DNA of 64,000 nt. Source: an uncultured Methanosarcinales archaeon. Its GTDB lineage: Archaea; Nanobdellota; Nanobdellia; Woesearchaeales; UBA9642. Position numbers and translations under genes: made by a program. The stretch spans positions 6,056 to 70,055 of the forward strand of contig CAZJFT010000001.1 in NCBI GenBank assembly GCA_964545585.1, in the 5' to 3' direction. The first letter of the stretch is position 1, and each line of letters begins with the position of its first letter. A model generated the notes under the pieces. It saw nothing but the letters and a program-made list of their open reading frames with translations, was not told the origin of the DNA and did no database searches. Positions 3,096 to 16,411 of this stretch are shown here, piece after piece.

Positions 3096-3653
3096 TCAAG
3101 CATATCGTTTTGACAAGGCAAAATATTTATTGTAATCCATCAACCATTGCATGAAATTCCGTTCTTTGGTCATCCTATAATCGACATCTGACTTAACTTT
3201 TGATAATGATCTGGTGCAAAGTTCGACATTGTTCTGCAACGCATTTTTTATGTCCAATATAGGCGTATCACCTCTGAACGAATCGCCTCTGATTATGTAC
3301 TTATCTGCATCTTCTCCAAAGAAATTATTAAGCATATACCCGTGCCATTGCTCCTTAATAATCCGTTTTGCAGCAGGATCTAATAACTCGCCATCATTAT
3401 ATAGCTTAAGATTTGTCCGTATTGCACATTTCAGCATCTCCCTAAAATCTTGCTTATCCATCTTTTCAGACATGGCCTTCATCACTTTCGGAAAATCATT
3501 CACAAAGACAAAATCAGTCTTATAACTATCTAAGTATTGTATGTACGGAACATCAGGGTACTGTATTATTTTATCATAAAGAAGTATTTTTTCTAACGTT
3601 CTAGGCTTCTTTTCCGTTGTAATGTCTGACATCACGAATGTATCGGTCACCAT
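3096..3653 (-). CDS. Hypothetical protein
   Basis: 185 aa ORF, no recognisable motif. Confidence 0.4.
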   Translation of the reverse strand: MVTDTFVMSDITTEKKPRTLEKILLYDKIIQYPDVPYIQYLDSYKTDFVFVNDFPKVMKAMSEKMDKQDFREMLKCAIRTNLKLYNDGELLDPAAKRIIKEQWHGYMLNNFFGEDADKYIIRGDSFRGDTPILDIKNALQNNVELCTRSLSKVKSDVDYRMTKERNFMQWLMDYNKYFALSKRYA

Positions 3654-5227: not shown

Positions 5228-5788
5228 CTAGTTTTTGTTGAAAGGCGACATAACAAGATCATAACTATCTTTGTTCGGTTTTGCATAATTATGCTCGTTG
5301 ACCTTGAATTTCACCTGTTCTCTTGGACCGAATATGTCATTGTCTGAAATATTGGTATTATTCAATAGATCTGCACTTGAAACAACATTGCTCAATGCAT
5401 ACGGGACTGAATCATGATTTTTTGGCACAAGCTTTATCCCATAACCTATATCGTTGTCTTTGAAGATTTTGTCTAATTTTGTTAATCTCCTTTTAGGTAA
5501 ACCTACACCCATACTCAAATCTACAAATAATTCTGACCCAGCATAGTTTAACATTAAATAATCCTTTCCACGTATATCTGCTAATCCGGCAATATATCCC
5601 GGATTTCCTACTGTGATTCTGTTAAATGATTCATCCATAATCATAGTCAGATTTTCTTTCAAAAAAGGAAACTTATTTAGTGAAATTCTCGTTTTATCAG
5701 CTAATATCACTCCAGCTATAGAATTTACTATTTCTGTCGATTCTCTTGCAAATCCATTGTTATTCATTATAATCCCTCCAATAAGCAC
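5228..5788 (-). CDS. Hypothetical protein (weak resemblance to PAC2/PbaA-type proteasome assembly chaperone)
   Basis: 186 aa ORF; resemblance is impressionistic only. Confidence 0.3.
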   Translation of the reverse strand: MLIGGIIMNNNGFARESTEIVNSIAGVILADKTRISLNKFPFLKENLTMIMDESFNRITVGNPGYIAGLADIRGKDYLMLNYAGSELFVDLSMGVGLPKRRLTKLDKIFKDNDIGYGIKLVPKNHDSVPYALSNVVSSADLLNNTNISDNDIFGPREQVKFKVNEHNYAKPNKDSYDLVMSPFNKN

Positions 5789-6526: not shown

Positions 6527-6581
6527 AAAACAAAAAAGAACGACTTACTTAAAATATTTTTCGGAAACAGTCTTTAAGAGA

Positions 6582-7043
6582 TTATTCCAGTCCACGCAGC
6601 TTTGACTCTATTGCTGCAAGCGATGCTTCAAGCTTATGAAGTTCTGAATGCTGCTCGTGTTTGCCTTCATGGTCTGGCGCGTGTTTCTCTGCCTGTTTAA
6701 CGGCCTTCTTAGGAACCTTCTTCTCGACCTGCTTGTTTCTCTTGAAAGAGCTCATTATTTCTGTATTATAGTCAGGCAATTTTTGGGATAGCCTATTGTT
6801 CAAATAAGAAAGCTCTTTTATTGATTGCTTAAGACCTTCTAGATGCTTCAGCTTCTCCTGCCTTATCAGCAACAACTTATGATAGTTCTGAAGACTGACC
6901 AAGCTCTTCTTAGTGGATTCTAGAAGATGTCTTCTTGTATCTAAAGGACTCTTTACAGAGACATAATAAGACTCTTCATCCCTTGAAACTTTCTTTTTTG
7001 CCGCCATCTTCAAACAACACCTAGTCATTATCGAAGAATGCAC
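6582..7043 (-). CDS. Coiled-coil protein, paralog 3 of tandem triad (likely true start at MAAKKK)
   Basis: 153 aa; module YYVSVKSPLDTRRHLLES followed by heptad-rich coiled coil; basic/His-rich C-terminus. Confidence 0.45.
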   Translation of the reverse strand: MHSSIMTRCCLKMAAKKKVSRDEESYYVSVKSPLDTRRHLLESTKKSLVSLQNYHKLLLIRQEKLKHLEGLKQSIKELSYLNNRLSQKLPDYNTEIMSSFKRNKQVEKKVPKKAVKQAEKHAPDHEGKHEQHSELHKLEASLAAIESKLRGLE

Positions 7044-7242
7044 TGTCTATGAATGCAAGCCTCTTCGATATCTCATTGACGTTCTTCTCCCATTCCTGCA
7101 ATTCCTGGTCCTCTTGTGTCTTCAACTCTTTTATCCTTGCCAATTCCTGCTTCGTCTCCTTCAATTTCTTCTTCATGACATCTATTATATCAAGGACTTC
7201 CTTATAATTGTCAATCTTCACGAATACGGGTACGTTTTGCAT
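7021..7242 (-). CDS. Small coiled-coil protein, paralog 2 of tandem triad
   Basis: 73 aa; PVFVKIDNYKEVLDIIDVMKKKL followed by coiled coil. Confidence 0.45.
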   Translation of the reverse strand: MQNVPVFVKIDNYKEVLDIIDVMKKKLKETKQELARIKELKTQEDQELQEWEKNVNEISKRLAFIDSAFFDND

Positions 7243-7252
7243 AATATCACCT

Positions 7253-8002
7253 TTAAGCGAACACCTTTTTGTCTATCATAAGCATCTTCTTGTAAAGAAA
7301 TTCCATATTATCTTTACATGAATTGATAGTTAAATCCTCTTGCTTGAACGTCTCAAGAACCTGGAGCATCTTCTCATCCTGCATGACAAGTATCTTCTTC
7401 ACATCCTCCATTTCCGAGAATACCTTGCTATAATCCGTGCCCTTGACGAAAACATCATAAGGGACATCGTCAGGAACATGATGCTCAGGCAATTCTACAT
7501 CATCAAATTCGGGCACATCAAATGATTTTCCAGAATAATTTCCCGATGGGGCTTCTGGCAAAGTTATCGGCCCGGCCATAACTGCTGGCCGCGGGGGAGT
7601 TATACCGAAATCTTCCATTGTCGGAGGCTCAATCTCCTCCTCATAGTATGGCTCGTAATGCTCCCAGTCCGGCTCCTTCCATTCAGGGTCGGATAAGAAT
7701 AATTGGTTTATATCTGTTGAAAGGTCTTCTGGCATAGAATGTAATGCATGATCATGATATCCTCCTGCTTGAGGTGCATTGTCAGAAGGCAACGAATAAT
7801 CTTCAACAGGTGAAGGGACAGCGACAGGCTCTCGTGAAGAAGAATCTTGTGGATAATCATCCAACGAAGGAAGCGTCAACTCATTTAAATTCGAACCATC
7901 TACGTTCGGCAGATCAGTGTTCAAACTACTCAGATCCGGAGACTGCACAGTAGGGACAGATGAATCTTTCTTCTTCAAGAAACTAAATAATCCCATAAAC
8001 AC
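7253..8002 (-). CDS. Acidic/proline-rich disordered protein with C-terminal module, paralog 1 of triad
   Basis: 249 aa; N-terminus MGLFSFLKKK, long D/E/P-rich region, C-terminus DVFVKGTDYSKVFSEMEDVKKIL + coiled coil matching the modules of the next two ORFs. Confidence 0.45.
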   Translation of the reverse strand: MFMGLFSFLKKKDSSVPTVQSPDLSSLNTDLPNVDGSNLNELTLPSLDDYPQDSSSREPVAVPSPVEDYSLPSDNAPQAGGYHDHALHSMPEDLSTDINQLFLSDPEWKEPDWEHYEPYYEEEIEPPTMEDFGITPPRPAVMAGPITLPEAPSGNYSGKSFDVPEFDDVELPEHHVPDDVPYDVFVKGTDYSKVFSEMEDVKKILVMQDEKMLQVLETFKQEDLTINSCKDNMEFLYKKMLMIDKKVFA

Positions 8003-8148
8003 CCCTTTTTTACGACTTTAATATGAACTACCTCAGAGAATAATACTTTTAAAGACTATTAAAAGTTTTCTTATTATTGTATAATAGTGAAGATTTCTGT
8101 CCGAATGTTTTCTGACGGAAAATTTTTATTCAAGAAAAACATACATCA

Positions 8149-9147
8149 ATGATGCACGAAGTTAAAGAATTCTTCAGAAAAACTGGAAAAAACAATATCG
8201 TTCAATGCAAATTATGCCCGCATAACTGCAATATAGGAATAGATAAAAAAGGTCTATGCGGGACTAGAACAAATAATGGCGGGAAACTCTACAGCACGGT
8301 ATATGGAAGGCCATGCGCGATACACATAGATCCTGTGGAAAAGAAGCCATTATACCATTTCTATCCGGGATCCGACATACTGTCCGTTGGAACATTAGGA
8401 TGCAACCTATTTTGTAAAGGATGTCAAAACTATGACATCAGCAAAGGACCTATGAGAGACTTCCCATATGTCGAACCTGAAAAGATTGTTGAAGAAGCAG
8501 AAAATAATGATACAAATATGATAGCATATACATACAATGAGCCTACAATATTCTACGAATACATGATAGACATTGCAAAGCTTGCAAAGAAAAGAAAGAT
8601 GAAGAATGTCATCGTGAGCAACGGATTCATAAATGACGCGCCTCTGAAAAAACTCTCGAGATACGTCGATGCTGCAAACATAGACTTGAAAGGGTTTAAT
8701 GAAAAATTCTACAAAGAGTATGCGAATGCAAAACTTGAGCCCATACTGAAGAACCTCAAGACTATAAAGAGAAGCGGGACATGGCTGGAAGTTACGAATC
8801 TAATAATACCTGGATTGAACGATGAAGAATCAGACATACAAGAGATGTGTCTTTGGATTAATAAAAACTTAAAGGACACCCCATTACACCTCTCAAGATT
8901 TTTCCCATATTATAAAGCCTCAGAAAAAGAGATCACGCCTGAAAAAACACTATATAACGCAAAAAAGGTCGCGATGAAGAGCGGGATAGGCCATGTCTAT
9001 ATAGGTAATATCGGCAACTATGACAACACATATTGTAATAATTGCGACAATCTTCTCATAATCAGGGATCGTCAAGTGAGAGTTATAGGCATAATTGACG
9101 GCAAGTGTATTTCCTGTCGGAAAAAAATACCTGGCGTTTTTAATTGA
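8149..9147 (+). CDS. AmmeMemoRadiSam-system radical SAM enzyme (AmrS-like; PflA-activase related)
   Basis: 332 aa; CxxxCxxC radical SAM motif (CNLFCKGC); N-terminal CKLCPHNC...KKPLYHFYPGS signature typical of AmrS/PflX-like. Confidence 0.65.
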   Translation: MMHEVKEFFRKTGKNNIVQCKLCPHNCNIGIDKKGLCGTRTNNGGKLYSTVYGRPCAIHIDPVEKKPLYHFYPGSDILSVGTLGCNLFCKGCQNYDISKGPMRDFPYVEPEKIVEEAENNDTNMIAYTYNEPTIFYEYMIDIAKLAKKRKMKNVIVSNGFINDAPLKKLSRYVDAANIDLKGFNEKFYKEYANAKLEPILKNLKTIKRSGTWLEVTNLIIPGLNDEESDIQEMCLWINKNLKDTPLHLSRFFPYYKASEKEITPEKTLYNAKKVAMKSGIGHVYIGNIGNYDNTYCNNCDNLLIIRDRQVRVIGIIDGKCISCRKKIPGVFN

Positions 9148-9228: not shown

Positions 9229-10869
9229 ATGAAAAAGACATTTAGCATAAAATCAAGAAATAAAATCAAAAAGACATTAAAGAAAATACTCTGGGGCATA
9301 ATCTTCTTGACAACGATATATGCGGCCAATTCATTGCAATTCACAGAAATAATGTACAATCCCCAAGGCAGTGATACAGGCAGGGAGTGGATCGAGCTTT
9401 CAAATCCTGGATGCGAGAACTTAGAAGAGTATAAGCTTCTGGAGAATAACATAAATCACAATATAATACGTTATTCTGAAGGCATATGCAATAATACGAT
9501 AATATGTGACGATTGCGGCCTGTTCTTGGATGATTATAATGTTAGCTCCTTAATTTATGAAAGCTCGTTCACTCTCAGCAACACAGGTGAATTCATTGCA
9601 ATCACATATAATAACACAATCGTAGATTACGTGAATTACACAAATATGGAAAACATAGAAGGCATGTCCATAACAATGCAGGACGAATGGGTGCATATGG
9701 TGCCGACTCCAGGATACCATATAATTTTGAACATGAGCATCAATCAGACAAACAATCAAACAGATAACCAGACAATAAACATCACAATTAACCAGACAGT
9801 CGATCAGACGATGAACGACACCATAAACCTGACAATTAACATTACGACAAATGAAACCATAAACAGTAGCACAAATAACGATACAGGCAACATGATAATA
9901 ACTAATTCTACAGGTAAAGAAGAGAAATGCAATGTAACAATAGGGTTGAAGATAAAGGAGGAAAAAGGAATATATTATAATAAGGACACTATAAAGTTCT
10001 ATAACACTCTGAACGTGACACCTGCACAAAAAAAGGAATTCTATATAGAATACTGGATTGAAGACGTATACGGGAACATATTGAAGAACAAAGTCCAGAC
10101 GAACAACTTAAATGAGAAGACATACACTCCGAACACGAATGAGAGGACGATTGCGGCAGTATTCAAGAATCGAATAATAAACATCACTTGTGATTATGGG
10201 GAGGCAAACATCCTGAATGAAACTGCAGAGGATATGATAGTTATAAAGAATCTGGAATATAAAGAAAAAGAGTGCGAAAAATGCGAAAAATACTATTCTG
10301 ATAAAGATGCAGAAAAGGAATCGCAATTGAAGACAAATATAGATGAAGATATCCTGAAAATTGAAGCATATCGCGGAAACGACAGGAAATATATCATAAA
10401 TACAGCAATAAAAAATGGGAAAGACAGGAACGCAATAACGCCGATTAAGATAAGTTTAGAAAAATATTCCGGAATGACCATCGACATCCCTATATTAATA
10501 GGAGATTGCGGACAATATAGGATAATCACTGAAGGATTAGGCTTCATAGAGGAGAAAGGATATGTGATTGAATGCAAAGATACGGATTATGACGGATTAC
10601 AAAATGAAAAGACAGAAAAGATAGTTGCAATTGAACCTATAGAAAAAGGACAAACAGGACAAATAGAACAACAAGAAGCAGGAAACGCGACAACAAATAT
10701 TTCGCAGTTCTTCCACAACAGCATCACAGGAAAAGTCATGTATGAATCAAGGAATGAAGAAACAAAAAAGTATAGTCTTATAGGCACAATATTTCTGATT
10801 TCTGGTTCTGCGATATATGCAGCATATAAGCTATTTATAGCGAAGAAAACCACACCAAAAGATTTATAA
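9229..10869 (+). CDS. Surface/secreted protein with lamin-tail domain (LTD), NxT-rich glycosylation repeat region, C-terminal TM anchor
   Basis: 546 aa; N-terminal signal/TM; LTD signature FTEIMYNPQGSDTGREWIELSNPG; ~55-aa run of NQT/NIT/NET sequons; C-terminal hydrophobic helix + KK. Confidence 0.6.
   Translation: MKKTFSIKSRNKIKKTLKKILWGIIFLTTIYAANSLQFTEIMYNPQGSDTGREWIELSNPGCENLEEYKLLENNINHNIIRYSEGICNNTIICDDCGLFLDDYNVSSLIYESSFTLSNTGEFIAITYNNTIVDYVNYTNMENIEGMSITMQDEWVHMVPTPGYHIILNMSINQTNNQTDNQTINITINQTVDQTMNDTINLTINITTNETINSSTNNDTGNMIITNSTGKEEKCNVTIGLKIKEEKGIYYNKDTIKFYNTLNVTPAQKKEFYIEYWIEDVYGNILKNKVQTNNLNEKTYTPNTNERTIAAVFKNRIINITCDYGEANILNETAEDMIVIKNLEYKEKECEKCEKYYSDKDAEKESQLKTNIDEDILKIEAYRGNDRKYIINTAIKNGKDRNAITPIKISLEKYSGMTIDIPILIGDCGQYRIITEGLGFIEEKGYVIECKDTDYDGLQNEKTEKIVAIEPIEKGQTGQIEQQEAGNATTNISQFFHNSITGKVMYESRNEETKKYSLIGTIFLISGSAIYAAYKLFIAKKTTPKDL
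9740..9900 (+). repeat. Low-complexity coding repeat (N-x-T sequon array) inside LTD protein gene
   Basis: caatcagacaaacaatcaaacagataaccagacaataaacatcacaattaaccagaca... repetitive aac/cag/aca triplets. Confidence 0.6.
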
Positions 10870-10892: not shown

Positions 10893-11480
10893 ATGAAAGA
10901 CAAGGAAATAAAGGAATTTATAGCAAAAGGACATATATTATGCAAAGTAATATTTGAGATGGCCGGGAACCCTAAAGAGCACGTTGAATCTTCATTGAAA
11001 AAATACATTTCTGCAATAAAAGAAGATCCTAATTATATATTCATGAACGAATATTTCGCTCCTGCAGAAGAGAATGAAGGAATATGGAGCACTTTCTTCG
11101 AATCGGACGTGCTTGTATCAAATTTCGAGAAGTTGAACTTGCTTTGTTTCAACCTGACTCCTGCAAGCATAGAGATAATAGAGCCAGAAAATTTTACATT
11201 GACACAAAAAGAGCTGACATATTGGTATAATGACCTGCTGTCCAAGCTACATGAAGTATCTATCACATTGAAAAACTTCACTTCTGAGAATGAGATGCTG
11301 AAAGTAAACCTAAATAGGGCCATAAGGAACAGCATAGTTCTATCATTAACAGAACCTAAGTCGGTTGAAGAGATATCTGCAAAAGTAGGGATAGACAAGG
11401 AGCATATACAACCATTCATAGATGCGTTAGTTAAAGAGAAGAGCATAATTGTCGACGGTAATAAATATATGAAAAAATGA
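10893..11480 (+). CDS. Hypothetical protein with C-terminal winged-helix; possible divergent ScpA/kleisin partner of ScpB
   Basis: 195 aa; ATGA overlap with downstream ScpB (operon); C-terminus SVEEISAKVGIDKEHIQPFIDALVKEKSII looks wHTH; no canonical ScpA N-terminal motif seen. Confidence 0.3.
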   Translation: MKDKEIKEFIAKGHILCKVIFEMAGNPKEHVESSLKKYISAIKEDPNYIFMNEYFAPAEENEGIWSTFFESDVLVSNFEKLNLLCFNLTPASIEIIEPENFTLTQKELTYWYNDLLSKLHEVSITLKNFTSENEMLKVNLNRAIRNSIVLSLTEPKSVEEISAKVGIDKEHIQPFIDALVKEKSIIVDGNKYMKK

Positions 11481-12670
11481 AGAGTTCTAAGAAAAATAAA
11501 AGTAAGAATCTATCGATAAAGAAAAAAAATTCTAAGAAGATAGTTGAAAATCCGAAAATTAAACAAAAAAGGGAAATTAAGAAACCTGAGATAGAAGAAA
11601 TAAAGCAAGAAACACTCCCTATAAAAGAAAAGATAATTGAAACCCTTATAGAGGATAAAATAGAAGAAGAACCTCTTGTTGAAGATGTTGAAAAAATATC
11701 GCCTGAGCCAGTAAAAGCAAAATCAGGAAAAAAAACAATTATAAAAACTGAAGAGGATATAAATGATGAAAAAAATAAGGTCGAAGCGCTCCTTTTTGCA
11801 CACGGAAAATATATTGATGAATCGATGATATCTGAACTCTGCGGCGTAGACAAAAGACGACTGAAGAGAGTGTTGGAGAACTTAAGAGAAGATTATGAAA
11901 AAAAAGATTCTGCGCTTGCAATATTCCAAGAAGGAAACAGCTGGAAGATAAATGTGAGGGAGAAATATCTTTCAATAGTAAGAAAAATAGTCGCTGACAC
12001 TGAATTGCCTAAATCAGTCATGGAAACATTGGCAGTCATAGCATGGAAGTCGCCTATATATCAATCCGAGATCGTCAGGATAAGAGGAAACAAATGCTAT
12101 GACCATATAGATGTATTGGAAGAAGCGGGATTTGTCACCAAAGACAAGAAAGGGAGAAGCTATGTACTGAAAACGACAGACAAGTTCTACAATTACTTCG
12201 AGATAGATCATGGGAATCTCAAGAGCATATTCGAAGAGGTCAAGGTGCCCATAAAAGAGGAGCAGAAGACGCTTGAAGAAGACATCAAAGTCCCTGAGAA
12301 TATTGATATTGAGAAGAAGATAGAGCATATAGAAGTTAAGAAATGGACAGAGACAGATGAAGAAAAAGAGCAGCAAAGACAATTTCTTGATATGATGGAA
12401 GGAAAAATACAGGAAGTCAAGCAGAAGACTGCGATTTTTGAGGAAGAGATGCCAAGTCCTAAGAGGGAAGTCACGATAATAGAGGAGACAATAATAGCGG
12501 TTCCTAAAAATGAAGAGGTACCAGAATCTTCGGAAAAGGAGAATCCCAAAAATTACGCGGAAGCAACCCAAGAAGACAATAAAAGACCTAAATCATTGAC
12601 AAAGAAGCAGCTTGAAAAGAAATTCCGTGATGAACTTCTCAGAGTAAGAGAAAAGATGGAGAAGAAATGA
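11477..12670 (+). CDS. scpB: Segregation and condensation protein B (ScpB) with K/E-rich N- and C-terminal extensions
   Basis: Core EALLFAHGKYIDESMISELCGV...SVMETLAVIAWKSPIYQSEIVRIRGNKCYDHIDVLEEAGFV...DKFYNYFEI aligns with the tandem wH domains of ScpB. Confidence 0.65.
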   Translation: MKSSKKNKSKNLSIKKKNSKKIVENPKIKQKREIKKPEIEEIKQETLPIKEKIIETLIEDKIEEEPLVEDVEKISPEPVKAKSGKKTIIKTEEDINDEKNKVEALLFAHGKYIDESMISELCGVDKRRLKRVLENLREDYEKKDSALAIFQEGNSWKINVREKYLSIVRKIVADTELPKSVMETLAVIAWKSPIYQSEIVRIRGNKCYDHIDVLEEAGFVTKDKKGRSYVLKTTDKFYNYFEIDHGNLKSIFEEVKVPIKEEQKTLEEDIKVPENIDIEKKIEHIEVKKWTETDEEKEQQRQFLDMMEGKIQEVKQKTAIFEEEMPSPKREVTIIEETIIAVPKNEEVPESSEKENPKNYAEATQEDNKRPKSLTKKQLEKKFRDELLRVREKMEKK

Positions 12671-13927: not shown

Positions 13928-16411
13928 ATGTCCGACGATAACATAGTGCAGGATCCTAACGTAAACAATGGAAATAATGGCAATTCTAAGATAATAGCTC
14001 AGCCTATTGAAGATGAGATGAAGAAATCATATTTAGATTATGCCATGTCTGTAATAGTCGGAAGAGCACTCCCTGACGTAAAAGACGGCCTTAAGCCGGT
14101 GCATAGAAGAATACTTTATGCGATGAATGAGTTGAGCAACACGTACAATAAACCATTCAAGAAGTGTGCAAGAATCGTTGGAGAGGTCCTCGGTAAGTAT
14201 CATCCTCATGGAGACAGTGCAGTATATGACTCTCTTGTAAGGATGGCACAGGATTTCTCATTAAGATATCCTCTTGTCCAGGGACAAGGTAACTTTGGCT
14301 CCATAGATGGAGATAATGCTGCAGCGATGAGATATACTGAAGCGAGGCTTTCACGAATAAGCGATGAGATGCTTCAGGACATAGATAAAGATACCGTAGA
14401 ATTCACGCCGAATTTCGATGGCACACTGAAAGAGCCTATAGTTTTACCGAGCAAATTTCCTAATCTATTGGTGAATGGTAGTTCGGGCATTGCGGTAGGC
14501 ATGGCGACAAATATCCCGCCGCACAATCTGAGGGAATCATGTGAGGCAGTAATTGCATTGATAGACAATCCTGAGATAACGATTGAAGAGATATCGCAGA
14601 TTGTAAAGGGACCGGATTTCCCCACAGGCGCAGAGATTGTGGGAAGAAAAGGGATAATCGATGCATACAAGAACGGCAAAGGCATAATACGAATAAGGTC
14701 TATAATAGATATAGAGAAAAAGAAAGAGAAGAATAGGCTCGTTGTAAAGGAAATACCTTACCAAGTCAATAAAGCAACGCTCGTAGAGGACATAGCGAAT
14801 CTTGTCAGGGACAAGAAGATAACAGAGATATCTGACTTGAGGGATGAATCGGACAGGGACGGGGTAAGGATAGTCATTGAGTTGAAGAAGGATGCAAATC
14901 CAGAGATAGTCAAGAACTTATTGTATAATCATTCAAGATTGCAGGACACATTTGGGATAAACTTCGTCGCGCTAGTGAACAATGAACCGCGGCTTTTGAG
15001 CATAAAATCTTATTTGAGCAATTATCTCGATCATAGGATAACAATAGTACGCAAGAGGACAGCATATGACCTCAAGAAGGCAGAGGAGAGAGCACACATA
15101 CTTGAGGGGTTAAGGATAGCTCTCAAGAATATCGATCCCATAGTCGCACTCATAAAGAAGAGCAAGTCTGCAGATGACGCAAAGAAAGGACTCATAGAAG
15201 GATATGCGCTCACTGAAGTGCAGGCGGCAGCAATACTTGACATGAAGCTCCAGAGGATTGCTGTACTTGAGCAGGAAAAGATAAACAATGAATTCAATGA
15301 TCTGATGGTTAAGATAAAGGAATACAAAGAGATACTTGATTCAGAAGTAAGAATAAGAGACATAATAAAATCAGAGATGAGCGAGATAATAAGTACATAT
15401 TCAAAGAATGATTCAAGAAAGACAAAGATAATCGATGTGGCAGATGAAGAATTAGACTTTGAAGTAGAGGACTTGATACCTGATGAGCCGGTAGTCATAA
15501 CGCTCACGCATTCAGGATATGTAAAGAGGGTCCCTACAGAGTATTATAAGGTACAGAACAGGGGTGGACGAGGGATAATAGCATCAGATTTGAAAGAAGG
15601 AGACTACATTGAAGACGTGTTCGTCGCAAAGACACACTCATATTTATTGATAATAACGAACAAAGGAACATTACATTGGATGAAAGTATACAAGATACCT
15701 GACGCATCAAGACAATCCATGGGCAAGGCAATAGTCAACCTGCTAGAGCTTGATGCCGATGAAAAAGTGAATGCGATAATCCCTGTAAGGGAATTCGATG
15801 ATAAGCATTATCTAGTCATGGCCACGAAGAACGGGACAATAAAGAAGACAAACTTGATAGAATTCAGCAATCCCCGAAAAGGCGGCATAATGGCCATAAA
15901 TATAGATTCAGAGAATAATGACAGACTAATAAATGTAAGGATGACAGATGGAACGAAGAATATCATGATCGCTACAAAGGGTGGTCAGGCAGCATTATTT
16001 GATGAACAGGACGTAAGGCCTACAGGAAGACAATCACAGGGAGTCAGAGGAATAAAGCTTGAGAAAGATGACGAAGTCATAGGAATGATAATAGCCGATC
16101 CTGACAAGCAAGTCCTTACATTGACAGAGAACGGTTATGGAAAGAGGACACCAACAGCGGAGTACAGGCTTATATCAAGAGGCGGAAAAGGCGTCAGGAA
16201 CATATTATGCTCAGAAAGGAATGGAAAAGTGGTTGCAGTTGTTGCTGTGAAAGATGAAGATGAAGTGATGTTGATAAGCAGGAAAGGAATACTCATAAGG
16301 ACAGAATGCTCACAGATATCACAAGTCGGCAGAAGCACGCAAGGCGTAAGGTTGATGAAATTATCGGCCGGTGACAAGGCCACAAGCATGACTAAAATCA
16401 TGAAAGAATAG
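13928..16411 (+). CDS. gyrA: DNA gyrase subunit A
   Basis: 827 aa; [20 protein letters not shown], active-site Tyr context [11 protein letters not shown]-terminal beta-pinwheel repeats; no gyrB adjacent. Confidence 0.9.

What the first reader, a model, noticed from the sequence alone, without database searches (positions are those of the whole stretch)
6582..8002. Three tandem paralogous genes sharing a V-x-V-K-x-D-x-Y-(K/S)-x-V + coiled-coil module
Consecutive minus-strand ORFs of 249, 73 and 153 aa each contain a related block followed by heptad repeats:
- DVFVKGTDYSKVFSEMEDVKKIL
- PVFVKIDNYKEVLDIIDVMKKKL
- YYVSVKSPLDTRRHLLESTKK

The first also carries a ~190-aa acidic, proline-rich disordered N-terminal region beginning MGLFSFLKKK. 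The last has a basic His-rich tail. I recognise no characterised family. The layout suggests a self-assembling filament, scaffold or envelope-associated system. A single ancestral gene broken by frameshifts is an alternative, since ORF junctions are 10 nt apart or overlapping.
Basis: seen in the sequence. Interest (0 to 1): 0.55.

Follow-up and report, generated by a model that had tools for sequence, protein, structure and literature searches.

The report
Conserved DPANN coiled-coil gene triad
Three adjacent small genes in a Woesearchaeota-type (DPANN) archaeon encode long-helix proteins with no known family: one has a likely membrane-binding tip and a long acidic floppy linker, one is a bare helix, and one is a basic partner. 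They most likely assemble into a membrane-attached scaffold, but what that scaffold does in the cell is still unknown.

Summary
The three minus-strand genes are real, separate and co-transcribed. They are A (7996-7253, 247 aa), B (7242-7021, 73 aa) and C (7007-6582, 141 aa). Each has its own Shine-Dalgarno site. The same order recurs in about 70 DPANN loci from Woesearchaeota/Nanoarchaeota, Pacearchaeota and Aenigmatarchaeota.

A's C-terminal 69 residues are a true paralogue of B (BLASTP 8e-5; HMM 2e-9). C shares only the architecture: a short strand followed by a helix of about 57 residues. Its sequence similarity to the A/B module does not exceed heptad-shifted controls.

A carries MGLFxFLKKK, an acidic proline-rich linker (net charge -33) with conserved motifs (P-x3-DF, [LIV]P[DE]F) and the module. 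B is the most conserved of the three. C is basic (+11) and ends in a conserved helix. Some lineages have only two genes (A'-C), which suggests that A and B arose by duplication.

Pfam, NCBIfam, PADLOC, PHROGs, PDB sequence searches and Foldseek gave no significant match, and neighbouring genes are housekeeping.

The best reading is a heteromeric parallel helical bundle tethered to the membrane, with a SepF/CdpC-like layout but a different core. The frameshift alternative is refuted. Function is inferred, not shown.

The parts
7253..7996 (-). [quoted passage not shown]
   Evidence: ORF and sequence. 37 homologues, all unannotated or 'hypothetical', the named ones Woesearchaeota. Alignment A1.
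7967..7996 (-). A residues 1-10, MGLFSFLKKK: an aromatic/hydrophobic cluster followed by an invariant KKK. Putative peripheral membrane-binding motif.
   Evidence: K8, K9 and K10 are invariant and M1, G2 and F6 are at least 90% conserved. A regex finds the same type of start in 50 of 70 A-like proteins, and most of the remainder show it by eye. The helical hydrophobic moment is not above shuffles (0.26 against 0.31 +/- 0.15), so amphipathicity as such is not shown.
7466..7966 (-). A residues 11-177: acidic (net -33), 15% Pro linker that varies in length between homologues, with islands of conservation.
   Evidence: Across 70 A-like proteins the median linker net charge is -14, and it is negative in 61.
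7601..7711 (-). A residues 96-132: conserved aromatic/acidic block INQLFLSDPEWKEPDWEHYEPYYEEEIEPPTMEDFGI.
   Evidence: L99, E108, P116, P125, D129 and F130 are invariant in alignment A1. Coordinates.
7499..7522 (-). A residues 159-166: FDVPEFDD, a short linear motif of the form [LIVF]P[DE]F flanked by acidic residues.
   Evidence: P162 is invariant. [LIVF]P[DE]F occurs in 36 of 70 A-like linkers, often as FELPDF[DE][DE].
7256..7462 (-). A residues 179-247: diverged copy of the coiled-coil module (PYDVFVKGTDY...IDKKVFA).
   Evidence: BLASTP against B gives 8e-5. Module HMM hits at 2e-9 and 3.5e-10. Gap-free alignment with B.
7021..7242 (-). Gene B (73 aa plus stop): the stand-alone module, an extended PVFVKID segment followed by one helix of about 60 residues. 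It is the most conserved member of the triad.
   Evidence: 103 homologous clusters, all but a few full-length at 64-100% identity. AF2 pLDDT 91 with helix 10-70. Mean pairwise identity over 34 triad loci is 0.46, against 0.23 for the A module and 0.29 for the C core.
7102..7122 (-). B residues 41-47 (KTQEDQE): conserved polar/acidic layer in the middle of the heptad seam. K41 is at an a position and E44 at a d position.
   Evidence: Column statistics on 109 modules: position 41 is 70% basic, 44 is 77% acidic, 45 is 76% acidic and 47 is 60% acidic, within an otherwise unbroken 3-4 hydrophobic pattern from 13 to 69.
6582..7007 (-). Gene C (141 aa plus stop): a basic partner protein consisting of a strand, a long helix, an LP break, a basic linker and a conserved C-terminal helix.
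   Evidence: 19 homologues. A C-like gene lies immediately downstream of the module gene in about 65 of 70 loci. AF2 predicts helices 21-76, 82-94 and 118-140, with 96-116 at pLDDT below 50. Net charge is +11 here, and the family median is also +11, positive in 59 of 62.
6774..6971 (-). C residues 13-78: SYYVSVKSP strand followed by the long helix, ending at the conserved L77-P78. R25, R/K26, L29, R49 and K52 are nearly invariant.
   Evidence: Column statistics on 62 diverse C proteins. R49 and K52 fall on the layer that hhalign aligns with module K41 and E44.
6648..6746 (-). C residues 88-120: Lys/His-rich segment. Residues 88-94 are helical in the model and 96-116 are low-confidence (disordered).
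   Evidence: Residues 96-116 have pLDDT below 50; composition. In other genomes this region and the N-terminus expand into K/P/A-rich tracts.
6585..6647 (-). C residues 121-141: C-terminal heptad helix SELHKLEASLAAIESKLRGLE. Family consensus: E-L-x-K-L-E-x-x-L-x-x-I-E-x-K-L-K-x-L at the C-terminus.
   Evidence: Conserved across the family. The tail HMM hits only this ORF in the window (5.5e-8).
8000..8005 (-). SD-like GGGGTG, 3 nt upstream of the A start codon.
7246..7252 (-). SD-like AGGTGAT in the 10-nt A-B spacer.
7018..7023 (-). SD-like TAGGTG overlapping the B stop codon, 10 nt upstream of the C start codon.
8045..8065 (-). A/T-rich TATA-like elements (CTTTTAATAG, CTTTAAAAGT) 50-70 nt upstream of the A start. 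Candidate archaeal promoter for the A-B-C unit, identified by eye only.
   Evidence: Sequence reading. No archaeal promoter tool was available.
6527..6540 (-). Oligo-T tract TTCTTTTTTGTTTT after C. Candidate archaeal terminator, identified by eye only.
   Evidence: Sequence reading.

Best explanation
A, B and C are the subunits of one cytoplasmic, membrane-tethered coiled-coil complex specific to DPANN archaea.

Shown:
- They are three separate, tightly linked genes.
- The A C-terminus and B are paralogous.
- B and the core of C are each predicted as a short extended segment followed by a single helix of about 57-61 residues, of matching length.
- A has a hydrophobic-polybasic N-terminus and a long acidic linker carrying conserved short motifs.
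- C is strongly basic and ends in a conserved helix.

Inferred:
- The helices pack in parallel and in register into a heteromeric bundle of three or more strands, and the N-terminal strands form a small sheet at one end.
- A conserved polar layer in the middle of the seam (Glu at a d position in A and B, Arg/Lys at the aligned layer in C) favours hetero- over homo-assembly.
- The MGLFxFLKKK tip of A holds the bundle at the inner face of the membrane through a flexible acidic spacer of about 170 residues. The conserved motifs in that spacer (P-x3-DF, [LIV]P[DE]F) recruit a partner.
- The basic disordered segments of C bind a polyanion (DNA, RNA, acidic lipid, or the acidic linker of A).
- The C-terminal helix of C either docks back on the bundle or binds another factor.

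The ancestral form was a two-gene system (tethered module plus C). In most Woesearchaeota the module gene duplicated. B kept the ancestral sequence and A kept the tether.

The most likely cellular role is envelope-linked organisation: the cell-division machinery or nucleoid-to-membrane coupling. This is analogous to SepF, CdpC or Noc. It is an analogy, not homology.
For: Linkage:
- The order A-B-C is conserved in distant contigs.
- A C gene lies immediately 3' of the module gene in about 65 of 70 DPANN loci. About 48 are triads, 14 are two-gene A'-C versions and 4 lack C.
- Spacers are 10 and 13 nt, and each gene has its own SD site.
- No other neighbour is consistently linked, and neighbours are housekeeping genes.

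Paralogy of A and B.

Structure:
- AF2 predicts B as a single helix 10-70 (pLDDT 91) and C with a helix 21-76 plus a terminal helix 118-140.
- Strand-to-helix-end length matches: module F7 to F70, C Y15 to P78.
- The module has 17 consecutive a/d layers. The a positions are Leu-rich and the d positions Ile/Val-rich. Extra hydrophobic residues sit at some e/g positions in both families.
- By the Harbury GCN4 rules (my own knowledge), this pattern disfavours a two-stranded parallel dimer and fits a higher-order bundle.

Charge logic:
- Module K41/E44/D45/E47 align with C R49/K52, which are 93% and 98% basic.
- A linker median net charge is -14, C is +11 and B is -5.

Tether architecture: MG[LF]F..KKK start, Pro/acidic linker and module in 130-400-aa relatives.

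Cellular core gene rather than mobile element:
- Absent from viral contigs.
- No PADLOC or PHROGs family.

Strong constraint on B: mean pairwise identity 0.46, against 0.23 for the A module and 0.29 for the C core.
Against: - No physical or co-folding evidence exists for a complex.
- The AF2 models are monomers, and single helices say nothing about partner or orientation.
- The N-terminal motif does not score as an amphipathic helix above shuffles.
- Some lineages have the module protein without C (L066, L068, L074, L075), so C is not strictly obligatory.
- The polar-layer pairing rests on an hhalign register that is no better than heptad-shifted controls. It is anchored only by the strand and the helix ends.
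- Gene neighbourhood gives no functional clue, so the cellular process is a guess.
Confidence: 0.5

Rival explanations
1. The complex is specifically an FtsZ/SepF-linked division adaptor. The acidic Phe-containing motifs in the A linker mimic FtsZ C-terminal peptides and dock on SepF or another FtsZ-tail-binding protein. Alternatively, the bundle itself binds FtsZ. Either way the Z-ring would be tethered or regulated at the membrane.
For: - The architecture (membrane tip, flexible linker, C-terminal oligomerising domain) is that of SepF (PMC8178401) and of CdpC, the FtsZ1 anchor of Haloferax (10.64898/2026.07.16.738847).
- DPANN archaea are described as dividing with FtsZ (PMC7617429).
- The invariant A motif ...EDFG[IV] resembles the M. 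smithii FtsZ tail NEDQLDDFIDGIF.
- [LIV]P[DE]F resembles the bacterial D-[IV]-P-x-F tail core (my own knowledge; proline conservation noted).
Against: - The motif matches are 4-5 residues long, and their chance expectation was not tested.
- No FtsZ, SepF or Min gene lies near the triad in any of about 70 loci. No GGGTG[STA]G signature was found, and neighbours are housekeeping.
- The module has no similarity to the SepF core or to the CdpC zinc fingers.
- FtsZ and SepF of these organisms could not be retrieved.
Confidence: 0.15
2. The complex is a nucleoid (or RNA)-to-membrane tether. C binds nucleic acid through its polycationic disordered regions. A fixes the complex to the membrane. The acidic A linker acts as a spacer or an autoinhibitory DNA mimic. 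This would work like Noc or RacA-DivIVA in bacteria.
For: - C is basic in 59 of 62 genomes (median +11).
- Several C proteins carry long K/P/A-rich extensions (KPAAKP-like) resembling histone H1/AlgP tails (L001, L011, L012, L017).
- R25 and R26 are nearly invariant at the start of the C helix.
- ScpB, GyrA, an RNase T-like exonuclease, PCNA, Nre and RNase J recur within a few kb.
Against: - The synteny is with divergently transcribed or separated genes in only 21-28 of 70 loci, and may simply reflect shared ancestry.
- No recognised DNA-binding fold is present.
- Basic regions could equally bind the acidic A linker or lipids.
- Lineages without C still keep the tethered module.
Confidence: 0.15
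3. The complex is an ESCRT-III/Vipp1-like membrane remodeller. The MGLF N-terminus would act as helix alpha-0, the long helices would build a polymer, and the C-terminal helix of C would be a MIM1-like motif that recruits a MIT-domain ATPase (Vps4/CdvC).
For: - The C-terminal helix is separated from the core by a disordered linker. Its I-E-x-K-L-K-x-L pattern resembles the MIM1 core L-x-x-R-L-x-x-L-[KR] (MIM1 consensus from my own knowledge).
- The MGLF start resembles the Vipp1/CHMP3 N-termini (my own knowledge).
Against: - No Snf7 or PspA_IM30 Pfam hit appears, even at E up to 1 for the window proteins or 0.1 for 45 modules and 37 C proteins.
- AF2 gives single helices, not the alpha1-alpha2 hairpin.
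- No AAA/MIT gene is in the neighbourhood.
- The reviews read here describe DPANN division as FtsZ-based and give no sign of Cdv proteins in the DPANN lineages that carry this triad.
Confidence: 0.04
4. The three proteins are independent coiled-coil proteins that merely sit together. The shared look is generic heptad composition, and there is no common complex.
For: - The similarity between C and the module is no better than heptad-shifted controls.
- Coiled coils give many chance hits.
Against: - The adjacency of the module and C genes is conserved across lineages in which A itself is only 29-40% identical, with short or overlapping junctions.
- Core helix lengths match and central charged layers are complementary.
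- The A-B paralogy is significant.
Confidence: 0.1
5. The three ORFs are a single ancestral gene broken by frameshifts, through a pseudogene or an assembly error.
For: Short junctions: a 10-nt gap between A and B, and an overlap if the GTG-extended C ORF is used.
Against: - The same three-gene structure, with the same boundaries, appears in dozens of independent assemblies, including complete genomes.
- Each gene has its own ATG and SD site.
- B homologues are 73-75 aa in about 100 clusters.
- The A module and B are paralogues, not consecutive parts of one protein.
Confidence: 0.01

Closest known systems
SepF (archaeal/bacterial FtsZ membrane anchor; Pfam PF04472)
   Same: Same layout as A: a short N-terminal membrane-binding peptide (MsSepF residues 1-12, MGFTDALKRSLGF), a flexible linker and a C-terminal self-associating domain. 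It is small, cytoplasmic and peripheral (PMC8178401).
   Different: The SepF core is an alpha/beta dimer that binds the FtsZ tail. The A/B module is predicted as one long coiled-coil helix, and the window A and B proteins have no SepF Pfam hit at E up to 1. The A linker is far longer and more acidic. SepF has no B-like or C-like partners.
CdpC (HVO_0399), FtsZ1 anchor of Haloferax volcanii
   Same: [quoted passage not shown] It evolves fast, but its domain architecture is conserved (10.64898/2026.07.16.738847).
   Different: Both CdpC domains need zinc fingers. A has a single Cys and no CxxC pair. CdpC is a single gene and haloarchaeal. No sequence relationship was detected.
SNARE-type parallel helical bundles
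   Same: Helices of about 55-60 residues with 16-17 uninterrupted a/d layers and a conserved polar or ionic layer in the centre. Several different small proteins each contribute one helix (SNARE features from my own knowledge).
   Different: There is no C-terminal transmembrane anchor next to the helix. The tether is at the far N-terminus behind a long linker. Pfam V-SNARE_C matches only 4 of 45 modules, at E of 0.028 or worse. Nothing indicates membrane fusion.
ESCRT-III / Vipp1-PspA superfamily
   Same: An MGLF-type N-terminus, long helices, and a C-terminal amphipathic helix behind a disordered linker that resembles MIM1 (comparison from my own knowledge).
   Different: No helical hairpin is predicted, there is no Pfam Snf7 or PspA hit, and no Vps4 gene is nearby.
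Occludin/ELL C-terminal coiled-coil domain (PDB 1WPA, 3G7C; MARVELD2 5N7I)
   Same: These are the only recurrent, though weak, PDB sequence hits of the C profile. E is 0.008-0.03, covering profile positions 37-126: the second half of the long helix, the turn (LPDY against LDDY) and the terminal helix. They suggest that the terminal helix could fold back on the long helix.
   Different: The domain is eukaryotic. The scores are sub-threshold with compositional bias. Occludin_ELL was not among the families listed for 37 C proteins (only the first 25 of 62 were shown). I treat this as an analogy at most.
Noc (Bacillus nucleoid occlusion protein)
   Same: The proposed logic is the same: an N-terminal membrane-binding peptide plus a nucleic-acid-binding part brings DNA to the membrane (my own knowledge).
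   Different: Noc is a single ParB-fold protein. Here the two activities would sit on different subunits joined by a coiled coil. DNA binding by C is untested.

Membership tests
SepF (PF04472) | N-terminal membrane-targeting sequence followed by a flexible linker | tested here: inconclusive
   MGLFSFLKKK plus a 167-residue acidic linker are present and conserved. The helical hydrophobic moment is not above shuffles, and membrane binding is untested.
SepF (PF04472) | C-terminal alpha/beta SepF core domain | tested here: not met
   No PF04472 hit at E up to 1. AF2 predicts a single long helix for the module.
SepF (PF04472) | Binds the FtsZ C-terminal peptide | not testable with these tools
   No FtsZ from these genomes could be retrieved, and there is no binding assay.
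CdpC (HVO_0399-like) | Zinc fingers in both the N-terminal and the C-terminal domain | tested here: not met
   A contains one Cys in total.
CdpC (HVO_0399-like) | Membrane-binding helix, long disordered linker and C-terminal binding domain | tested here: met
   The same tripartite layout is seen in A and in 70 A-like proteins. This is architecture only.
ESCRT-III / PspA-Vipp1 | Alpha1-alpha2 helical hairpin core recognisable by the Snf7 or PspA_IM30 profiles | tested here: not met
   Neither Snf7 nor PspA_IM30 is listed for the window proteins (E up to 1), nor among the 25 most frequent families for 45 modules and 37 C proteins (lists truncated). AF2 shows single helices.
ESCRT-III / PspA-Vipp1 | C-terminal MIM1 helix (D/E-x-x-L-x-x-R-L-x-x-L-K/R) that binds a MIT domain | tested here: inconclusive
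   The C terminus has I-E-x-K-L-[KR]-x-L. This is a partial match to a short degenerate motif, and no MIT protein was identified.
SNARE | A heptad motif of about 53-60 residues with a central polar '0' layer | tested here: met
   The module has 17 a/d layers from 13 to 69, with K41(a) and E44(d) conserved. C has R49 and K52 at the aligned layer. This is a resemblance in design only.
SNARE | C-terminal transmembrane or lipid anchor adjacent to the motif, and a match to the SNARE profiles | tested here: not met
   No hydrophobic C-terminus is present. V-SNARE_C matches only 4 of 45 modules, at E of 0.028 or worse.
A/B module family (this work; no database name) | P-[VI]-F-[VI]-K-I-D-x-Y-K start, about 8 heptads with a central K..ED.E, and an I-D-K-x-[LF]-F-E end | tested here: met
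   B matches at 4e-31 and the A C-terminus at 2e-9. Consensus.
A/B module family (this work; no database name) | C belongs to the same homologous family | tested here: not met
   BLASTP gives 0.35 and 0.069. The hhalign score of 22.0 compares with 19.3 +/- 1.8 for heptad-shifted controls. The HMM cross-hits are E = 0.5 and 0.009.

The most novel reading that the evidence does not exclude
The triad is the core of a previously unrecognised, DPANN-specific cytoskeletal or tethering machine. It would be a SNARE-like parallel heteromeric helical bundle with a charge-coded central layer, hung from the membrane by a long acidic leash whose peptide motifs imitate FtsZ tails. It would couple the division ring and/or the nucleoid to the envelope in ultra-small archaea. 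This would be a third solution beside SepF and CdpC, and it would have evolved by duplication of a two-gene ancestor.
Probability: 0.2. Interest if true: 0.8.

Novelty: new variant of a known kind. Interest (0 to 1): 0.55.

Why it matters
DPANN archaea make up a large part of archaeal diversity, yet almost nothing is known about their cell biology. Their separation from other archaea is driven partly by families of hypothetical proteins (PMC8204110).

This operon is one of those families. It is present in Woesearchaeota, Pacearchaeota and Aenigmatarchaeota. One subunit, B, is conserved at a level usually seen for core machinery. None of the three proteins matched Pfam, NCBIfam or any solved structure.

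Its layout is that of the known archaeal Z-ring anchors, but it is built on a different, multi-subunit coiled-coil core. If the complex proves to be a division or nucleoid tether, it would give a first handle on how these tiny symbionts organise their envelope. It would also be a clean case of subunit diversification by duplication.

The predictions are directly testable with recombinant proteins, even though the organisms are uncultured.

Tried and rejected
- Known families. Pfam found nothing for the window proteins, 45 modules or 37 C proteins, only scattered sub-threshold coiled-coil hits (DUF1940, Med9, MtrG, Laminin_II and others). NCBIfam, PADLOC and PHROGs also gave nothing.
- Solved structures. 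PDB sequence profiles gave only coiled-coil noise, apart from weak occludin/MARVELD2 hits for C. Foldseek of both AF2 models against the PDB gave 0 hits and 1 hit at E = 7. The afdb50 library was unavailable.
- Homology of C to the module. This was tested by BLASTP, by hhalign and by shuffling controls, and rejected as unproven.
- Gene neighbourhood. Clustering neighbours over about 70 loci found only housekeeping genes and lineage-level synteny: radical SAM, an LTD-like surface protein, MJ0538, ScpB, RNase J, TFE, PCNA, Nre and aminoacyl-tRNA synthetases. No FtsZ signature was found in any locus.
- Viral origin. There is no relative in IMG/VR.
- Aenigmatarchaeota fusion clue. The extra C-terminal helix looks like the terminal helix of C, but the tail HMM gives E = 6, so this remains only a hint.
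- Amphipathic-helix test of the A N-terminus. The hydrophobic moment is no better than shuffles.
- P0193, a 2576-aa hit of the A2 profile, is an unrelated repetitive protein that matches the low-complexity linker.
- A first attempt to scan genomes with the most diverse alignment failed because it had no conserved stretch.
Full report
WHAT IS IN THE SEQUENCE.

The window carries three consecutive minus-strand ORFs at 8002-7253, 7242-7021 and 7043-6582. Reading the DNA and aligning homologues places the real starts at ATG 7996 for A (247 aa, MGLFSFLKKK...) and ATG 7007 for C (141 aa, MAAKKKVSRDEE...). B runs from 7242 to 7021 (73 aa).

Each start is preceded by a Shine-Dalgarno-like site: GGGGTG at 8005-8000, AGGTGAT at 7252-7246 and TAGGTG at 7023-7018. 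The spacers are 10 nt (A-B) and 13 nt (B-C). By eye, A/T-rich TATA-like elements lie 50-70 nt upstream of A, and an oligo-T tract follows C. The three genes therefore form one compact unit.

The organism is a Woesearchaeota-type DPANN archaeon. All named homologues come from such MAGs, and window GC is 31-42%.

IS THE SHARED MODULE REAL?

For A and B, yes.
- BLASTP aligns A 182-246 with B 6-70 without gaps (28% identity, E = 8e-5).
- MAFFT aligns 16 A and 19 B homologues colinearly.
- An HMM built from stand-alone B-like proteins hits the A C-terminus at 2e-9 to 3.5e-10.

For C, no.
- BLASTP gives E = 0.35 and 0.069 in a different register.
- hhalign of the close alignments gives probability 0.1%.
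- With diverse alignments, hhalign produces a full-length colinear alignment. My controls show this is heptad periodicity. The real score is 22.0. Circular shifts by multiples of seven columns score 19.3 +/- 1.8, and 1 of 11 reaches the real score. Block-of-7 shuffles score 13.4 +/- 3.1. The reversed alignment scores 15.0.

What C does share is architecture. AF2 predicts B as an extended PVFVKID segment plus one helix 10-70 (pLDDT 91). It predicts C as an extended SYYVSVK segment plus a helix 21-76, a short helix 82-94, a disordered basic stretch and a terminal helix 118-140 (pLDDT 74.5). The distance from the strand to the end of the long helix is the same in both families (F7 to F70; Y15 to P78).

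THE FRAMESHIFT ALTERNATIVE.

This is refuted. The same three genes, with the same boundaries, occur in distant contigs and in dozens of GTDB species representatives, including complete genomes. B is 73-75 aa in about 100 clusters.

HOW WIDESPREAD, AND IN WHAT LAYOUTS?

An exhaustive profile search returned 2475 cluster representatives at E up to 1e-3 and 180 at E up to 1e-10. The profile included the low-complexity A linker, so the weaker matches contain false positives such as P0193.

The stronger hits fall into two classes:
- Stand-alone modules of 72-80 aa.
- Proteins of 120-400 aa with an MG[LF]F...KKK start, a Pro/acidic linker and the module at the C-terminus.

A scan of one genome per GTDB species gave 69 loci. 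All are from Woesearchaeota/Nanoarchaeota/Nanobdellota, Pacearchaeota (L071) and Aenigmatarchaeota (L074, L075). Some records are labelled 'Methanosarcinales' or 'Alphaproteobacteria' but carry the same Woesearchaeota-like synteny, so they look mislabelled.

Local HMM analysis of these loci shows three layouts:
- About 48 triads A-B-C. In 14 of them the A module is too diverged for the HMM but obvious by eye.
- About 14 two-gene versions, in which a single 130-180-aa protein (tip, short linker, module) is followed by C.
- 4 loci without C. These include the two Aenigmatarchaeota, where the module protein carries an extra C-terminal heptad helix. That helix resembles the tail of C but not significantly (E = 6).

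The parsimonious history is an ancestral tethered module that gained C, followed by duplication into A and B. B kept the ancestral sequence. Over 34 triad loci its mean pairwise identity is 0.46, against 0.23 for the A module and 0.29 for the C core.

ANATOMY.

Protein A:
- K8-K10 are invariant. M1, G2 and F6 are nearly invariant.
- The linker (residues 11-177) has net charge -33 and 25 prolines. Across the family the median linker charge is -14, negative in 61 of 70.
- Conserved islands are LNTDLPxxDG, LPSL, a 37-residue aromatic/acidic block (96-132, with P125, D129 and F130 invariant) and FDVPEFDD (P162 invariant). [LIVF]P[DE]F occurs in 36 of 70 linkers, often as FELPDF[DE][DE].

The module (109 sequences):
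- A hydrophobic strand at positions 6-10 is followed by an unbroken 3-4 pattern from 13 to 69, giving 17 layers.
- The a positions are Leu-rich and the d positions Ile/Val-rich. W51 occupies a d position.
- In the centre there is a conserved polar layer: K41 (a) and E44 (d), flanked by D45 and E47.

Protein C (62 sequences):
- The strand is at 14-18 and P21 follows it.
- R25, R/K26, L29, R49 and K52 are nearly invariant, and the long helix ends at L77-P78.
- Next come a basic linker and a C-terminal helix with the consensus E-L-x-K-L-E-x-x-L-x-x-I-E-x-K-L-K-x-L.
- C is net positive in 59 of 62 genomes (median +11). Some members add long K/P/A-rich extensions.

If the strands are placed in register, R49 and K52 of C fall on the same layer as K41 and E44 of the module.

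WHAT IT IS NOT.

- No family is matched in Pfam, NCBIfam, PADLOC or PHROGs.
- No solved relative is found by sequence or by Foldseek.
- The only recurrent weak PDB hits are the occludin/MARVELD2 C-terminal coiled-coil domains for C (E = 0.008-0.03). I regard these as analogy at most.
- There is no relative in viral contigs.
- Neighbouring genes are housekeeping. Their partial conservation (radical SAM, an LTD-like surface protein, MJ0538-ScpB upstream and divergent; RNase J downstream; elsewhere TFE, PCNA, Nre and aminoacyl-tRNA synthetases) looks like inherited synteny rather than functional linkage.
- No FtsZ signature occurs in any fetched locus.

MOST LIKELY MECHANISM.

Shown: three linked genes; A/B paralogy; long single helices of matching length; a hydrophobic-polybasic N-terminus and an acidic motif-bearing linker on A; a basic C with a conserved terminal helix.

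Inferred:
- The helices assemble in parallel into a heteromeric bundle of at least three strands. The Leu-at-a, Ile-at-d pattern and the extra hydrophobic e/g positions argue against a simple two-stranded dimer, by the Harbury rules (my own knowledge).
- The acidic layer of A and B pairs with the basic layer of C and so specifies hetero-assembly.
- The N-terminus of A holds the complex at the cytoplasmic face of the membrane.
- The linker motifs of A, and the basic regions and terminal helix of C, are the working ends that bind partners.

The layout is that of SepF (PMC8178401) and of the recently described CdpC, but the core is different and has several subunits.

Two sub-hypotheses about the process are open:
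- A division adaptor. The architecture points this way, and so do the A motifs EDFG[IV] and [LIV]P[DE]F, which resemble archaeal (NEDQLDDFIDGIF) and bacterial FtsZ tails.
- A nucleoid or RNA-to-membrane tether. The polycationic, H1-like regions of C and the loose synteny with ScpB, GyrA and PCNA point this way.

Neither could be tested here. An ESCRT-III-like reading (MGLF start, MIM1-like terminal helix) fails the profile and hairpin tests. A SNARE-like reading matches only the design of the helix, not the membrane anchor.

CAVEATS.

- The models are monomers. Orientation, stoichiometry and partner choice are inferences.
- The N-terminal motif does not score as an amphipathic helix above shuffles.
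- The layer alignment between module and C rests on the strand and helix ends, not on significant sequence similarity.
- The taxonomic range is a lower bound, because the genome scan used narrow peptide patterns.

VERDICT.

The scaffold/membrane idea is the best available reading.

The triad is an uncharacterised, widely conserved DPANN operon. It belongs to a known general kind (membrane-tethered coiled-coil scaffold) but to no known family. It probably belongs to the sets of Woesearchaeota/Pacearchaeota-specific hypothetical families noted by Castelle et al. (PMC8204110).

Interest is moderate to good (0.55). It would be high if the division or nucleoid role is confirmed.

Noticed in passing
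window 10893-11480 (+) and 11477-12670 (+): A 195-aa gene overlaps the start of an ScpB gene by 4 nt. Its counterparts in related loci carry Pfam MJ0538 (PF27325). The pair is conserved, divergently upstream of the triad, in 24-28 of about 70 DPANN loci. It could be a kleisin-like or other partner of ScpB.
   Followed up: partly
window 9229-10869 (+): A 546-aa protein with an N-terminal hydrophobic segment, a weak lamin-tail-domain hit (E = 0.028), many N-x-T/S sequons (NQT/NIT runs) and a C-terminal hydrophobic stretch. It is probably a glycosylated surface protein. It is conserved next to the radical SAM gene in 24 loci.
   Followed up: no
window 8149-9147 (+): A radical SAM enzyme is transcribed divergently from gene A. 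This head-to-head arrangement is kept in 21 related loci. No functional link to the triad is apparent.
   Followed up: partly
window 1-64000: No tRNA gene (ARAGORN) and no Rfam family at gathering threshold in the whole 64-kb window.
   Followed up: yes
L007, L013, L015, L019-L023, L026, L031, L034, L035, L037, L043 ('uncultured Methanosarcinales archaeon') and L012 ('Alphaproteobacteria bacterium'): These public MAG records carry the DPANN-type triad with Woesearchaeota-like neighbours. Their organism labels are probably wrong.
   Followed up: no
L001 6202-6996, L011 8191-8772, L012 6693-7379, L017 8131-8730: C-family members here have 50-130-residue N-terminal K/P/A-rich extensions (KPAAKP-like), reminiscent of histone H1/AlgP DNA-binding tails.
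   Followed up: partly
L074 4021-4545 and L075 7707-8321 (Aenigmatarchaeota): A single protein combines the N-terminal motif, a Pro-rich linker, the module and an extra C-terminal heptad helix (...YVSDLQSELAALKKELNKIK), and no C gene lies downstream. This may be a fusion-type clue that the module and the terminal helix of C work together, but it is not statistically supported.
   Followed up: partly
window 13928-16411 (+): A bacterial-type DNA gyrase subunit A is encoded in this archaeal window, and again near the triad in seven other loci.
   Followed up: no
window 5228-5788 (-) and 3096-3653 (-): Two ORFs of about 185 aa between the triad region and RNase J / peptidase M3 have no Pfam hit, and the first also has no NCBIfam hit. 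Function unknown.
   Followed up: no
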